Origin: Escherichia coli
Lineage (GTDB): Bacteria; Pseudomonadota; Gammaproteobacteria; Enterobacterales; Enterobacteriaceae
NCBI RefSeq assembly: GCF_003334255.1
Contig: NZ_QOWU01000002.1
DNA: 64,000 bases
Direction: 5' to 3' (one strand)
The notes beneath the pieces were generated by a model, which did no database searches, was not told where the DNA came from, and worked only from the letters and a program-made list of their open reading frames with translations. The position numbers and the translations under genes were made by a program. Position 1 is the stretch's first letter, and the number at the start of each line of letters is the position of its first letter. Shown here in pieces: positions 4,401 through 23,106 of this stretch.

Positions 4401-4802
4401 TTCCAGCTGGCGCAACGAAAGCGTGCTCAGAATTTTGCGCGTTTCTTCGTCGTTATCGACATCGCTAAGTGCTGTTAACGCCGCGGTCGCCTGGCGCATT
4501 TTTTCCGGCGCTTCAGCGACTTTTTGCCGTAGCTGAACTGTCTCTTCTTTTATGCGATCGATTTTATCGAGGGTGGCTAATGTATCTGTCAGATCCTGCT
4601 GCACCAGTTTGTCCTGAGCAGAAAGATCTTTTTGTTTATTTAGTGAGTCAAGTTGCGCCTGCAGGTCCGCTTTTGTCGGCAGATCACCATTCGATGACGC
4701 CCGCGCAAACGCCGTGTTCTGGCATAACAAGACAAAAACAAAAGCAATAAATGCTGAAAAAACAAAATGCCGTGATCGTTTGTAATACTGGAACATAGTC
4801 AT
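1440..4802 (-). CDS. mscK: Potassium-dependent mechanosensitive channel MscK (KefA)
   Basis: 1120-aa ORF; N-terminal signal sequence, long coiled-coil periplasmic region and C-terminal MscS-like domain; matches MscK. Confidence 0.95.
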   Translation of the reverse strand: MTMFQYYKRSRHFVFSAFIAFVFVLLCQNTAFARASSNGDLPTKADLQAQLDSLNKQKDLSAQDKLVQQDLTDTLATLDKIDRIKEETVQLRQKVAEAPEKMRQATAALTALSDVDNDEETRKILSTLSLRQLETRVAQALDDLQNAQNDLASYNSQLVSLQTQPERVQNAMYNASQQLQQIRSRLDGTDVGETALRPSQKVLMQAQQALLNAEIDQQRKSLEGNTVLQDTLQKQRDYVTANSARLEHQLQLLQEAVNSKRLTLTEKTAQEAVSPDEAARIQANPLVKQELEINQQLSQRLITATENGNQLMQQNIKVKNWLERALQSERNIKEQIAVLKGSLLLSRILYQQQQTLPSADELENMTNRIADLRLEQFEVNQQRDALFQSDAFVNKLEEGHTNEVNSEVHDALLQVVDMRRELLDQLNKQLGNQLMMAINLQINQQQLMSVSKNLKSILTQQIFWVNSNRPMDWDWIKAFPQSLKDEFKSMKITVNWQKAWPAVFIAFLAGLPLLLIAGLIHWRLGWLKAYQQKLASAVGSLRNDSQLNTPKAILIDLIRALPVCLIILAVGLILLTMQLNISELLWSFSKKLAIFWLVFGLCWKVLEKNGVAVRHFGMPEQQTSHWRRQIVRISLALLPIHFWSVVAELSPLHLMDDVLGQAMIFFNLLLIAFLVWPMCRESWRDKESHTMRLVTITVLSIIPIALMVLTATGYFYTTLRLAGRWIETVYLVIIWNLLYQTVLRGLSVAARRIAWRRALARRQNLVKEGAEGAEPPEEPTIALEQVNQQTLRITMLLMFALFGVMFWAIWSDLITVFSYLDSITLWHYNGTEAGAAVVKNVTMGSLLFAIIASMVAWALIRNLPGLLEVLVLSRLNMRQGASYAITTILNYIIIAVGAMTVFGSLGVSWDKLQWLAAALSVGLGFGLQEIFGNFVSGLIILFERPVRIGDTVTIGSFSGTVSKIRIRATTITDFDRKEVIIPNKAFVTERLINWSLTDTTTRLVIRLGVAYGSDLEKVRKVLLKAATEHPRVMHEPMPEVFFTAFGASTLDHELRLYVRELRDRSRTVDELNRTIDQLCRENDINIAFNQLEVHLHNEKGDEVTEVKRDYKGDDPTPAVG

Positions 4803-4929
4803 GATGAATGAAGGTTTCTGAACCTGAAGAACGACCTGAAAAAGTCAAACCGCAAGAATATCACGACGCAGTGAACCAGAATAGCAACGACGAAAATGTC
4901 CAGGAAAAATCCTGGAGTCAGATTCAGGG

Positions 4930-5577
4930 TTATTCGTTAGTGGCAGGATTACGAAGCGTGGGGCACAGGAGATACATCTCCAGTAAGATGGCAACGTAAT
5001 CGCGGGCTTCTTTTTTAAGATCAAAAGATTGCGGGGCAAAGAGCCAGTTTTCCATCAGGCCGGAAATATAGCCGCGCATAATAATTGCTGCGCGACGCGT
5101 CATTAAATCCGCAGGCAACATTTTCGCTTCAATACAATGTTTTAACGTTTGTTCTATACGGTCATAACTTTCCAGACAGAGATTACGTTGTGCCTGTTGC
5201 ACAACAGCCATTTCTCCGACAAATTCGCATTTGTGGAATATAATCTCCATCAATAATCGACGCCGTTCTTCTGTCACCGTGGATTCAAGAACATGAATTA
5301 ATATCTCTCTTAATACTGAGAGTGGATCGCCAGGGAATTTTGCCTGATACTCAAGCTCTAGTTCACCAATATTGGATTCTGACAGTTCCCAGATCTCACT
5401 GAACAAATCCGACTTGTCTTTAAAATGCCAGTAGATTGCACCGCGCGTAACGCCAGCTGCTTTTGCAATCTCGCCCAGCGAGGTGGATGATACCCCCTGC
5501 TGTGAGAAAAGACGTAGAGCCACATCGAGGATGTGTTGGCGCGTTTCTTGCGCTTCTTGTTTGGTTTTTCGTGCCAT
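4930..5577 (-). CDS. acrR: TetR-family repressor AcrR
   Basis: 215-aa ORF; translation matches AcrR; divergent from acrA with 141-bp gap. Confidence 0.95.
5558..5577 (-). promoter_or_regulatory. marbox-like site (MarA/SoxS/Rob) for acrAB activation
   Basis: Minus-strand sequence ATGGCACGAAAAACCAAACA fits the marbox consensus AYnGCACnnWnnRYYAAAYn; overlaps the acrR start codon. Confidence 0.55.
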
Positions 5578-5605
5578 ATGTTCGTGAATTTACAGGCGTT
5601 AGATT

Positions 5606-5629
5606 TACATACATTTGTGAATGTATGTA
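5606..5629. promoter_or_regulatory. AcrR operator, 24-bp perfect palindrome
   Basis: TACATACATTTGTGAATGTATGTA is a perfect inverted repeat in the acrR-acrA gap; candidate -35 TTTACA and -10 TACCAT overlap it. Confidence 0.85.
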
Positions 5630-5718
5630 CCATAGCACGACGATAATATAAACGCAGCAATGGGTTTATTAACTTTTGACCATTGACCAATTTGAAATCG
5701 GACACTCGAGGTTTACAT

Positions 5719-6912
5719 ATGAACAAAAACAGAGGGTTTACGCCTCTGGCGGTCGTTCTGATGCTCTCAGGCAGCTTAGCCCTAACAGGATGTGACGACA
5801 AACAGGCCCAACAAGGTGGCCAGCAGATGCCCGCCGTTGGCGTAGTAACAGTCAAAACTGAACCTCTGCAGATCACAACCGAGCTTCCGGGTCGCACCAG
5901 TGCCTACCGGATCGCAGAAGTTCGTCCTCAAGTTAGCGGGATTATCCTGAAGCGTAATTTCAAAGAAGGTAGCGACATCGAAGCAGGTGTCTCTCTCTAT
6001 CAGATTGATCCTGCGACCTATCAGGCGACATACGACAGTGCGAAAGGTGATCTGGCGAAAGCCCAGGCTGCAGCCAATATCGCGCAATTGACGGTGAATC
6101 GTTATCAGAAACTGCTCGGTACTCAGTACATCAGTAAGCAAGAGTACGATCAGGCTCTGGCTGATGCGCAACAGGCGAATGCTGCGGTAACTGCGGCGAA
6201 AGCTGCCGTTGAAACTGCGCGGATCAATCTGGCTTACACCAAAGTCACCTCTCCGATTAGCGGTCGCATTGGTAAGTCGAACGTGACGGAAGGCGCATTG
6301 GTACAGAACGGTCAGGCGACTGCGCTGGCAACCGTGCAGCAACTTGATCCGATCTACGTTGATGTGACCCAATCCAGCAACGACTTCCTGCGCCTGAAAC
6401 AGGAACTGGCGAATGGCACGCTGAAACAAGAGAACGGCAAAGCCAAAGTGTCACTGATCACCAGTGACGGCATTAAGTTCCCGCAGGACGGTACGCTGGA
6501 ATTCTCTGACGTTACCGTTGATCAGACCACTGGGTCTATCACCCTACGCGCTATCTTCCCGAACCCGGATCACACTCTGCTGCCGGGTATGTTCGTGCGC
6601 GCACGTCTGGAAGAAGGGCTTAATCCAAACGCTATTTTAGTCCCGCAACAGGGCGTAACCCGTACGCCGCGTGGCGATGCCACCGTACTGGTAGTTGGCG
6701 CGGATGACAAAGTGGAAACCCGTCCGATCGTTGCAAGCCAGGCTATTGGCGATAAGTGGCTGGTGACAGAAGGTCTGAAAGCAGGCGATCGCGTAGTAAT
6801 AAGTGGGCTGCAGAAAGTGCGTCCTGGTGTCCAGGTAAAAGCACAAGAAGTTACCGCTGATAATAACCAGCAAGCCGCAAGCGGTGCTCAGCCTGAACAG
6901 TCCAAGTCTTAA
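5719..6912 (+). CDS. acrA: Multidrug efflux periplasmic adaptor AcrA
   Basis: 397-aa protein starting MNKNRGFTPLAV with lipobox LTGC; ORF track extends 12 codons upstream but ATG 5719 follows a GAGG Shine-Dalgarno. Confidence 0.95.
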   Translation: MNKNRGFTPLAVVLMLSGSLALTGCDDKQAQQGGQQMPAVGVVTVKTEPLQITTELPGRTSAYRIAEVRPQVSGIILKRNFKEGSDIEAGVSLYQIDPATYQATYDSAKGDLAKAQAAANIAQLTVNRYQKLLGTQYISKQEYDQALADAQQANAAVTAAKAAVETARINLAYTKVTSPISGRIGKSNVTEGALVQNGQATALATVQQLDPIYVDVTQSSNDFLRLKQELANGTLKQENGKAKVSLITSDGIKFPQDGTLEFSDVTVDQTTGSITLRAIFPNPDHTLLPGMFVRARLEEGLNPNAILVPQQGVTRTPRGDATVLVVGADDKVETRPIVASQAIGDKWLVTEGLKAGDRVVISGLQKVRPGVQVKAQEVTADNNQQAASGAQPEQSKS

Positions 6913-6931
6913 CTTAAACAGGAGCCGTTAA

Positions 6932-10083
<3,152 letters not shown>

Positions 10084-22954: not shown

Positions 22955-23106
22955 AGCCCTTCCACAGAGAATTTTTTTCTCTTTTAATTTTATTTTAAAG
23001 GTGAAATCACGACAATTTATTCTGTGCGGTTTAAACACCACGGCACAAAATGACAAATTCAACGCAAAAAAAACCGGGCAATTGCCCGGTGCTGGAAGGG
23101 ATCTCG

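What the first reader, a model, noticed from the sequence alone, without database searches (positions are those of the whole stretch)
5558..5640. acrR-acrA control region: perfect 24-bp AcrR operator and a marbox overlapping the acrR start
The 141-bp divergent gap holds a perfect palindrome, TACATACATTTGTGAATGTATGTA (5606-5629), the expected AcrR operator, overlapped by plausible acrA -35/-10 hexamers. A 20-bp marbox-consensus match (ATGGCACGAAAAACCAAACA, minus strand, 5558-5577) overlaps the acrR initiation codon. Local repression by AcrR and global activation by MarA/SoxS/Rob therefore look intact, which makes the downstream acrB frameshift more striking because the regulation is preserved while the pump gene is broken.
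Basis: partly seen in the sequence, partly recalled or inferred. Interest (0 to 1): 0.35.

Follow-up and report, generated by a model that had tools for sequence, protein, structure and literature searches.

The report
Known acrAB promoter: AcrR operator, marbox
This is the ordinary, already well-characterised control region of the E. coli acrAB drug-efflux operon, with the AcrR repressor site on the promoter and the MarA/SoxS/Rob activator site inside the first codons of acrR; it is identical to that of about 97% of sequenced E. coli, so it is correct but not new.

Summary
The sequences and coordinates are exact. The window is E. coli chromosome; acrR is 4930-5577 (-), acrA 5719-6912 (+), and the gap is 141 bp.

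One detail is wrong. The "perfect 24-bp palindrome" is two perfect 10-bp inverted arms around a non-palindromic 4-bp spacer (TGTG). That is exactly the published AcrR site.

ATGGCACGAAAAACCAAACA (5558-5577, minus) matches the marbox consensus with 0 mismatches. It is the only such match in 64 kb (0.07 expected). It is the published acrAB marbox, reported as the first 20 nt of acrR and mapped as the RamA site at -161..-142 in Salmonella.

The 96-nt core is identical in 5248 of 5424 complete E. coli genomes. In 80 other Enterobacterales species:
- the marbox codons 2-6 show almost no synonymous change (the median elsewhere in acrR is 45% minor codons);
- the operator arms are conserved while the spacer varies;
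- the spacing between the elements is fixed.

The geometry fits a class I activator site at about -71.5 and a repressor site at -33..-10.

The acrB frameshift is real in the sequence (G6 to G5 at 7001-7005). It is the only indel against the nearest genome in 64 kb, so intact regulation beside it is expected rather than striking.

Verdict: already known, low interest.

The parts
4930..5577 (-). acrR, TetR-family local repressor, intact, 215 aa
   Evidence: ORF list and translation. NCBIfam equivalog NF007949 AcrR scores 419 bits against a 271-bit cut-off. PDB 2qop matches residues 1-215 at 471.7 bits. The nearest genome annotates the gene as WP_000101737.1.
5558..5577 (-). marbox (MarA/SoxS/Rob; RamA in other genera), ATGGCACGAAAAACCAAACA. 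It covers acrR codons 1-7 and is in reverse orientation relative to acrA, at about -81..-62 of the acrA promoter (class I).
   Evidence: 0 mismatches to AYNGCACNNWNNRYYAAAYN, unique in the window, 0.07 expected. Also 0 mismatches to the refined consensus. Nt 1-18 are the same in all 81 Enterobacterales sequences apart from C15 to T in three. Literature: PMC11642870, PMC2527123, PMC10268841, PMC11633057, PMC8811837.
5604..5609 (+). acrA promoter -35 hexamer TTTACA (predicted)
   Evidence: Promoter scan: TTTACA, 18 nt, TACCAT, 9 of 12 matches. Its columns are 90-100% conserved across 81 species.
5606..5629 (.). AcrR operator: arms 5606-5615 (TACATACATT) and 5620-5629 (AATGTATGTA), spacer 5616-5619 (TGTG); about -33..-10 of the acrA promoter
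   Evidence: Inverted repeat I1, 10 nt arms, 100% complementary, 4 nt between. Identical to the published 24-bp site. Arms are perfect in 66 of 80 other species and carry one mismatch in 14, while the spacer varies.
5628..5633 (+). acrA promoter -10 hexamer TACCAT (predicted)
   Evidence: its columns are 90-100% conserved.
5639..5640 (+). acrA transcription start (inferred, not measured here)
   Evidence: It lies 6-7 nt downstream of the -10 hexamer. PMC8811837 places the RamA site at about -71.5 using the EcoCyc E. coli start site. The marbox centre at 5567.5 plus 71.5 gives 5639.
5640..5718 (+). acrA 5' leader, with the secondary CsrA motif TCGGAC (5698-5703) and Shine-Dalgarno GAGG (5708-5711)
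   Evidence: Sequence read. High conservation across 81 species. CsrA binds the acrAB leader at AAGGA and TCGGA in Salmonella (PMC5727465). Only the TCGGA(C) motif is present here.
5719..6912 (+). acrA, periplasmic adaptor, intact
   Evidence: NCBIfam equivalog NF011604 scores 885 bits against a 765-bit cut-off.
6935..10083 (+). acrB interrupted by a 1-nt deletion in a G run (five G at 7001-7005 instead of six); the reading frame from the ATG stops after 42 codons
   Evidence: The remaining ORF matches AcrB profile positions 23-1049. Only 2 of 5423 complete E. coli genomes carry the same five-G allele, and both are annotated 'frameshifted'.

Best explanation
This is the canonical divergent acrR-acrAB control region of E. 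coli.

The acrA sigma-70 promoter is TTTACA, 18 nt, TACCAT, with a start at about 5639-5640. It is covered from about -33 to -10 by the AcrR operator, which is two 10-bp inverted arms separated by a 4-bp spacer. AcrR, encoded next door and intact here, is thought to bind this site as a dimer of dimers and so exclude RNA polymerase. Ligand binding releases it.

Twenty-six base pairs upstream of the -35 hexamer lies a single asymmetric marbox. It occupies the first 20 nt of the acrR reading frame and is in reverse orientation relative to acrA. A monomer of MarA, SoxS or Rob (RamA in Salmonella and Klebsiella) binds there, centred near -71.5, and activates as a class I factor through the polymerase alpha C-terminal domain.

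Shown here: exact sequence identity to the published sites, intact acrR, geometry, and strong DNA-level conservation. Taken from the literature: binding and function. Inferred: the transcription start and the steric-occlusion mechanism.
For: **Identity to published sites**
- The AcrR site is 5'-TACATACATTTGTGAATGTATGTA, described as two 10-bp inverted repeats plus a 4-bp spacer with a dimer-of-dimers binding model (PMC9769551 and PMC10597343).
- The marbox is reported as the first 20 nt of acrR. Keeping only the first 21 nt of acrR restores the resistance phenotype of an acrR deletion, and that resistance needs one of MarA, SoxS or Rob (PMC11642870).
- The identical 20-mer is the RamA EMSA site at -161..-142 from the Salmonella acrA ATG (PMC2527123). 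Here 5719-161 = 5558 and 5719-142 = 5577.
- There is a MarA/RamA/SoxS ChIP-seq peak with motif GCACGAAAAACCAAA (PMC10268841).
- MarA shifts E. coli acrAB marbox fragments in EMSA (PMC11633057).
- A RamA class I cryo-EM complex places the site at about -71.5 (PMC8811837).

**Tool results**
- The inverted repeat is 10+4+10.
- The marbox is unique in the window, with 0.07 expected.
- A promoter pair overlaps the operator.
- The 96-nt core is identical in 5248 of 5424 E. coli genomes.
- AcrR and AcrA reach equivalog scores.

**80 species with AcrR 60-99% identical**
- The marbox has 0 mismatches in 74 species and 1 in 6.
- The operator arms have 0 mismatches in 66 species and 1 in 14.
- The spacer varies: TGTG, TATG, TTTG, CGCG, TGCG, CGGG.
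- The distance from the acrR ATG to the operator is 29 nt in 74 species (range 28-30).
- Codons 2-6 use GCA, CGA, AAA, ACC (ACT in three sequences) and AAA in 81 of 81 sequences, whereas the median minor-codon fraction over codons 7-200 is 0.45.
- The -35 and -10 hexamers are about 100% conserved.
Against: - No binding or transcription experiment exists for this strain.
- The transcription start is inferred, not measured.
- The -10 hexamer TACCAT and an 18-nt spacer make a weak core promoter.
- In E. coli itself, a MarA ChIP-seq and a bioinformatic screen did not recover acrR<>acrA (Table S3 of PMC12052159). The authors say ChIP-seq finds only about 20% of known MarA targets.
- Part of the synonymous-site conservation in codons 2-6 could come from constraints on translation initiation of acrR rather than from the marbox.
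- The trans-acting genes marA, soxS and rob are not in the window.
Confidence: 0.95

Rival explanations
1. The marbox match is only a by-product of encoding the conserved AcrR N-terminus (MARKTKQ) and has no regulatory role.
For: The 20-mer lies entirely within codons 1-7 and the peptide MARKTK is invariant in 81 sequences. Marbox-like sequences are low in information: with 2 mismatches or fewer they are no more common than chance.
Against: The synonymous third positions of codons 2-6 are fixed in 81 of 81 sequences, including the rare CGA codon, while every other degenerate codon varies. Protein coding cannot explain this. There is direct genetics for the 21-nt element in E. coli (PMC11642870), EMSA mapping of the identical sequence (PMC2527123) and ChIP-seq (PMC10268841).
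Confidence: 0.02
2. The absolute synonymous conservation of acrR codons 2-6 reflects selection on the acrR mRNA (translation-initiation region, an A-rich unstructured start) rather than, or in addition to, activator binding to DNA.
For: Positions 9, 11 and 12 of the marbox are unconstrained in the strict consensus yet are also invariant. 5' coding regions are commonly under such selection (general knowledge).
Against: The conserved block ends sharply at marbox position 18-19. Codon 7 already shows CAA 57 and CAG 17. That matches the extent of the marbox rather than a gradual 5' effect. The only change tolerated inside the block (C15 to T) is one the consensus allows (Y).
Confidence: 0.15
3. 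The inverted repeat serves mainly another protein, such as the paralogous repressor EnvR/AcrS, or is a chance hairpin, rather than being the AcrR operator.
For: Perfect 10-nt inverted repeats occur at 7 places in the window. A paper titled 'EnvR is a potent repressor of acrAB transcription in Salmonella' came up in the search (PMC9780535; not read).
Against: The site is letter-for-letter identical to the one used for AcrR EMSA. The arms are conserved and the spacer is free in 80 species, which is the pattern of a dimeric helix-turn-helix operator. It sits on the core promoter next to an intact acrR. EnvR binding would add to AcrR binding, not replace it.
Confidence: 0.03
4. The acrB 'frameshift' that the finding contrasts with the intact regulation is an assembly or sequencing error in a homopolymer, so the pump is in fact intact.
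For: It is the only indel against strain G1/2 in 64 kb and lies in a G run. The same five-G allele appears in two unrelated assemblies. One of them, NCTC9040, has a second single-base deletion in an A run of the same gene.
Against: The rest of the window has no other homopolymer indels, so the assembly is not generally error-prone. G runs are also true slippage hot spots.
Confidence: 0.45

Closest known systems
E. coli K-12 acrAB promoter / AcrR operator (the site attributed to Su, Rutherford and Yu 2007, as cited in PMC10597343)
   Same: The 24 nt are identical, with the same 10+4+10 architecture, the same position between acrR and acrA, and the same repressor protein. The 96-nt core is identical to a 4,631,469-bp laboratory-strain genome that encodes the same AcrR and AcrA protein accessions as the nearest genome.
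   Different: Nothing in the element differs. Only the strain background differs: it is closest to strain G1/2, at 3 SNPs in 64 kb.
acrAB marbox of the mar/sox/rob regulon; RamA-binding site of Salmonella and Klebsiella acrA (class I)
   Same: The 20 nt are identical to the Salmonella RamA site and lie at the same distance from the acrA ATG, -161..-142. Orientation is reverse and the centre is near -71.5, inside the class I range of -56..-85.
   Different: [quoted passage not shown]
TetR-family operators of related efflux repressors (TtgR, MtrR), which have repressor-DNA crystal structures
   Same: AcrR is homologous to them (E 1e-44 to 1e-32). The palindromic operator overlaps the pump promoter, and the repressor gene is divergent.
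   Different: No AcrR-DNA complex was found among the solved structures, so the dimer-of-dimers mode for AcrR remains a model.

Membership tests
AcrR (TetR-family) operator of acrAB | Two 10-bp inverted arms separated by 4 bp, with the published sequence TACATACATT-N4-AATGTATGTA | tested here: met
   One search gives arms that are 100% complementary with a 4-nt gap. One search shows the site is unique in the window. It is identical to the site printed in PMC9769551 and PMC10597343.
AcrR (TetR-family) operator of acrAB | Overlaps the core promoter of the regulated operon | tested here: met
   The predicted TTTACA (5604-5609), 18 nt, TACCAT (5628-5633) pair brackets the site. Both hexamers are conserved in 81 species. 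The transcription start is inferred, not measured.
AcrR (TetR-family) operator of acrAB | Cognate repressor gene adjacent, divergent and intact | tested here: met
   acrR at 4930-5577 (-) encodes 215 aa and scores 419 bits on the NCBIfam AcrR equivalog against a 271-bit cut-off.
AcrR (TetR-family) operator of acrAB | Evolutionary pattern of a dimeric HTH operator: arms conserved, spacer free, position fixed | tested here: met
   Among 80 species the arms are perfect in 66 and carry one mismatch in 14. There are six spacer variants. The distance from the acrR ATG is 28-30 nt.
AcrR (TetR-family) operator of acrAB | Physical binding of AcrR and derepression by ligands | not testable with these tools
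   Literature only (EMSA in PMC10597343).
marbox (MarA/SoxS/Rob/RamA binding site), class I | Match to the 20-bp asymmetric consensus AYNGCACNNWNNRYYAAAYN | tested here: met
   0 mismatches and the only match in 64 kb, with 0.07 expected. The refined consensus quoted in PMC2453137 also matches with 0 mismatches.
marbox (MarA/SoxS/Rob/RamA binding site), class I | Reverse orientation relative to the promoter, centred between -56 and -85 | tested here: met
   The site is on the minus strand while acrA is on the plus strand. Its centre at 5567.5 is about -71.5 from the inferred start at 5639. The definition comes from PMC12052159 and the position from PMC8811837. This depends on the inferred start.
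marbox (MarA/SoxS/Rob/RamA binding site), class I | DNA-level selection beyond what the overlapping coding sequence requires | tested here: met
   The minor-codon fractions of codons 2-6 are 0, 0, 0, 0.04 and 0, against a median of 0.45 for codons 7-200. This is the lowest 5-codon window in the gene.
marbox (MarA/SoxS/Rob/RamA binding site), class I | Binding by, and activation through, MarA, SoxS or Rob | not testable with these tools
   Literature on the identical sequence. Negative in E. coli ChIP-seq.

The most novel reading that the evidence does not exclude
The control region itself holds nothing new. The most novel reading left open comes from the comparative set. Besides the marbox, acrR contains a second stretch with almost no synonymous change in 81 Enterobacterales: codons 76-81 and 84-85, window 5323-5352. 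The invariant blocks are GAGTATC and GATCCAC. Read on the acrA strand they become TGGATC, 17 nt, GATACT. This could be an undescribed cis element inside acrR, for example an antisense or upstream promoter directed toward acrA, or a binding site for a further regulator. Such an element would matter for interpreting acrR deletion and truncation mutants.
Probability: 0.3. Interest if true: 0.4.

Novelty: already known. Interest (0 to 1): 0.08.

Why it matters
This locus controls the main multidrug efflux pump of enteric bacteria, but both elements, their sequences and their roles are already published, and the window carries the majority E. coli allele.

The work has three practical uses:
1. It corrects the 'perfect palindrome' wording.
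2. It shows that intact regulation next to the acrB frameshift carries no information, because the change is either too recent or an artefact.
3. It shows how strictly the marbox is preserved at synonymous sites across the order. That supports the recent warning that acrR deletions which remove the first 20 nt are not equivalent to acrR point mutants.

Tried and rejected
- **Other marboxes near acrR.** I looked for a second marbox near the conserved acrR block and across the window. At 2 mismatches or fewer, hits are at chance level (11 against 17.5 expected). Only 5559-5577 and 23040-23058 stand out.
- **RNA hairpin in the second conserved block.** I tested whether the block at codons 76-85 forms a hairpin (CAGG/CCTG against CGGG/CCCG). 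The two positions do not covary (G/T 20, A/C 18, G/C 17, A/T 16), so this was rejected.
- **Promoter in the second block.** The promoter scanner does not report TGGATC-17-GATACT, which matches only 7 of 12 positions. The promoter reading of that block is weak.
- **Known RNA families.** Rfam found nothing in 4800-5800 at E up to 1.
- **Papers not held.** I could not open the primary papers Su et al. 2007 (PMC2104644, PubMed 17644067), Martin and Rosner 2011 (PMC3019838) or Thomason et al. 2015 (PMC4288677). The operator stoichiometry and affinity, the original class I assignment for E. coli acrAB and genome-wide start-site maps therefore rest on secondary citations.
- **Source strain.** I checked whether the window comes from one of the two complete genomes that share the five-G acrB allele. 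It does not: there are 7 and 102 mismatches over 7 kb.

Full report
**What is in the sequence**

The window is E. coli chromosome, running from priC and mscK through acrR, acrA, acrB, tomB and hha to tgt. It differs from the complete genome of strain G1/2 (NZ_CP060083.1) by three SNPs and one single-base deletion over all 64 kb.
- acrR is 4930-5577 on the minus strand, 215 aa. It scores 419 bits on the NCBIfam AcrR equivalog against a 271-bit cut-off.
- acrA is 5719-6912 on the plus strand (885 bits against 765).
- The acrB remnant matches the AcrB profile from position 23 to 1049.

**Checking the observation**

Both sequences are at the stated coordinates.

The 24-mer is not a perfect palindrome. 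It has two perfectly complementary 10-nt arms, 5606-5615 TACATACATT and 5620-5629 AATGTATGTA, around a 4-nt spacer, TGTG, that is not self-complementary. This is exactly how the literature describes the site: two 10-bp inverted repeats connected by a 4-bp spacer (PMC10597343).

The 20-mer ATGGCACGAAAAACCAAACA matches the marbox consensus AYNGCACNNWNNRYYAAAYN without mismatch. It is the only such match in the window, against 0.07 expected from shuffles. It also fits the refined consensus quoted in PMC2453137. Loosened to two mismatches, the consensus finds no more than chance (11 against 17.5 expected), so only the exact match is informative. Perfect 10-nt inverted repeats with short spacers occur at seven places in the window. 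The repeat is therefore convincing because of its identity and context, not its mere existence.

**What it is**

- The 24-mer is letter for letter the known AcrR-binding site of the acrAB promoter (PMC9769551, PMC10597343).
- The 20-mer is the known acrAB marbox. [quoted passage not shown] It also shows that an acrR deletion keeping only the first 21 nt behaves like an acrR point mutant, and that one of the three activators is needed.
- In Salmonella the identical 20-mer was mapped by deletion EMSA as the RamA site at -161 to -142 from the acrA ATG (PMC2527123). In the window those positions are 5558 and 5577, the same spacing.
- ChIP-seq in Salmonella gives a MarA/RamA/SoxS peak with motif GCACGAAAAACCAAA (PMC10268841).
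- MarA shifts E. coli acrAB marbox fragments (PMC11633057).
- A cryo-EM class I complex places RamA at about -71.5 on the Klebsiella acrA promoter, using the start site annotated for E. coli (PMC8811837).

**Geometry and mechanism**

The promoter scan finds TTTACA (5604-5609), 18 nt, TACCAT (5628-5633) on the plus strand. A start 6-7 nt downstream, at 5639-5640, puts the marbox centre (5567.5) at about -71.5, in agreement with PMC8811837. The marbox is on the strand opposite to acrA. That is the reverse orientation that defines class I sites, together with a centre between -56 and -85 (PMC12052159).

The operator then spans about -33 to -10. It covers four bases of the -35 hexamer, the whole spacer and two bases of the -10 hexamer. 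The simplest mechanism is therefore steric exclusion of RNA polymerase by AcrR, relieved by ligand. Independent class I activation comes from a monomeric MarA-type activator 26 bp upstream of the -35 hexamer, acting through the alpha C-terminal domain. The start site and the occlusion step are inferred. Binding is taken from the literature.

**Population and comparative evidence**

The 96 nt at 5550-5645 are identical in 5248 of 5424 complete E. coli genomes. Twenty-two more differ only by TATG in the operator spacer.

A scan of one genome per species returned 80 loci with AcrR 60-99% identical, from Escherichia to Serratia and Erwinia. In these loci:
- The marbox has no consensus mismatch in 74 species and one in 6. 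That one mismatch is position 19, where Gln7 becomes Glu.
- The operator arms are perfect in 66 species and carry one mismatch in 14.
- The spacer takes six forms.
- The distance from the acrR ATG to the operator is 29 nt in 74 species (range 28-30).
- The gap to acrA is 139-149 bp.
- The -35 and -10 hexamers are essentially invariant.

The clearest result is at synonymous sites. Codons 2-6 are GCA CGA AAA ACC AAA in all 81 sequences, with ACT in three, a change the consensus allows. Every other degenerate codon varies freely, with a median minor-codon fraction of 0.45. Variation begins at codon 7, just past the marbox core. The search patterns were degenerate peptide patterns, and a region used as a pattern (IYWHFKDK) shows normal synonymous variation, so this is not a selection artefact. 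Protein coding alone cannot explain the conservation. Selection on the DNA site can. Selection on the acrR translation-initiation region may contribute.

**Caveats**

- No experiment exists for this strain.
- The start site is inferred.
- E. coli MarA ChIP-seq and a recent bioinformatic screen did not recover acrR<>acrA (PMC12052159 Table S3). The authors stress that ChIP-seq recovers only about 20% of known targets.
- marA, soxS and rob are outside the window.

**The acrB frameshift**

The G run at 7001-7005 has five G where other E. coli have six. The reading frame from the ATG at 6935 ends after 42 codons.

Only 2 of 5423 complete genomes share the allele (NCTC9040 and MS20645), and both are annotated as frameshifted. 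They differ from the window by 7 and 102 substitutions in 7 kb, so the change has arisen, or been miscalled, independently. NCTC9040 has another single-base deletion in an A run of the same gene.

The window differs from its nearest relative by about one change per 16 kb, so an unchanged 83-bp control region is what one expects whether the frameshift is real or an error. The region also contains the acrR start codon and drives acrA. From general knowledge, AcrA also serves other RND pumps such as AcrD.

**Verdict**

This is a correct identification of a well-known regulatory region carrying the majority allele. It is already known and of low interest. The only open lead is a second block of synonymous constraint inside acrR, listed under things noticed in passing.

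Noticed in passing
window 5323-5352 (acrR codons 76-85, minus strand): This is a second stretch of acrR with almost no synonymous variation in 81 Enterobacterales: GAG 80/81, TAT 81/81, GCA 71/72, GAT 73/73, CCA 80/81. It is the second-lowest 5-codon window in the gene after the marbox. The invariant blocks are GAGTATC and GATCCAC. On the acrA strand they read TGGATC, 17 nt, GATACT, which is weakly promoter-like at 7 of 12 and is not called by the scanner. A hairpin was rejected because there is no covariation, and Rfam found nothing. The cause is unknown.
   Followed up: partly
window 7001-7005 (acrB codons 23-24): A G6 to G5 deletion truncates AcrB after 42 codons. It is the only indel against strain G1/2 in 64 kb. 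The same allele occurs in only 2 of 5423 complete E. coli genomes, on unrelated backgrounds, so it is either a recurrent slippage or a recurrent homopolymer miscall.
   Followed up: partly
window 23040-23058 (+), 86-104 bp upstream of decR/ybaO (decR-mdlAB on the minus strand): This is the second-best marbox in the window, ACGGCACAAAATGACAAAT, with 1 mismatch to the refined consensus and reverse orientation relative to decR. It corresponds to the SoxS ChIP-seq site '0452<>ybaO GCACAAAATGATAAA' in Salmonella.
   Followed up: partly
window 5640-5718 (acrA 5' leader): The whole leader is about 90-100% conserved across 81 species. It contains TCGGAC (5698-5703), the secondary CsrA site described for Salmonella acrAB mRNA. 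The primary AAGGA motif of Salmonella is absent from this E. coli sequence.
   Followed up: partly
window 5569-5577 and 5632-5640: There is an imperfect inverted repeat, TCGTGCCAT / ATAGCACGA (8 of 9 complementary). It pairs the GCAC end of the marbox with a second, highly conserved GCAC at the inferred acrA start site. The downstream half does not continue into a full marbox.
   Followed up: no
E. coli genomes H4-H15 aligned to window 4900-7100: Twelve of the 15 top-ranked hits carry an insertion sequence (IS1, IS3, IS4, IS5, IS30, IS481 families) in or next to acrR. This shows that acrR is inactivated in a range of sequenced E. coli isolates. Whether these insertions spare the marbox was not examined.
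   Followed up: no
window 5645-5672 (-): Candidate acrR promoter hexamers TTAATA, 16 or 18 nt, TATATT or TATTAT lie back-to-back with the acrA promoter. The -10-like part is conserved across species, while the -35-like part is not (consensus GTCCAC on that strand). If this promoter is used, the AcrR operator lies in the acrR leader, which fits autoregulation.
   Followed up: no
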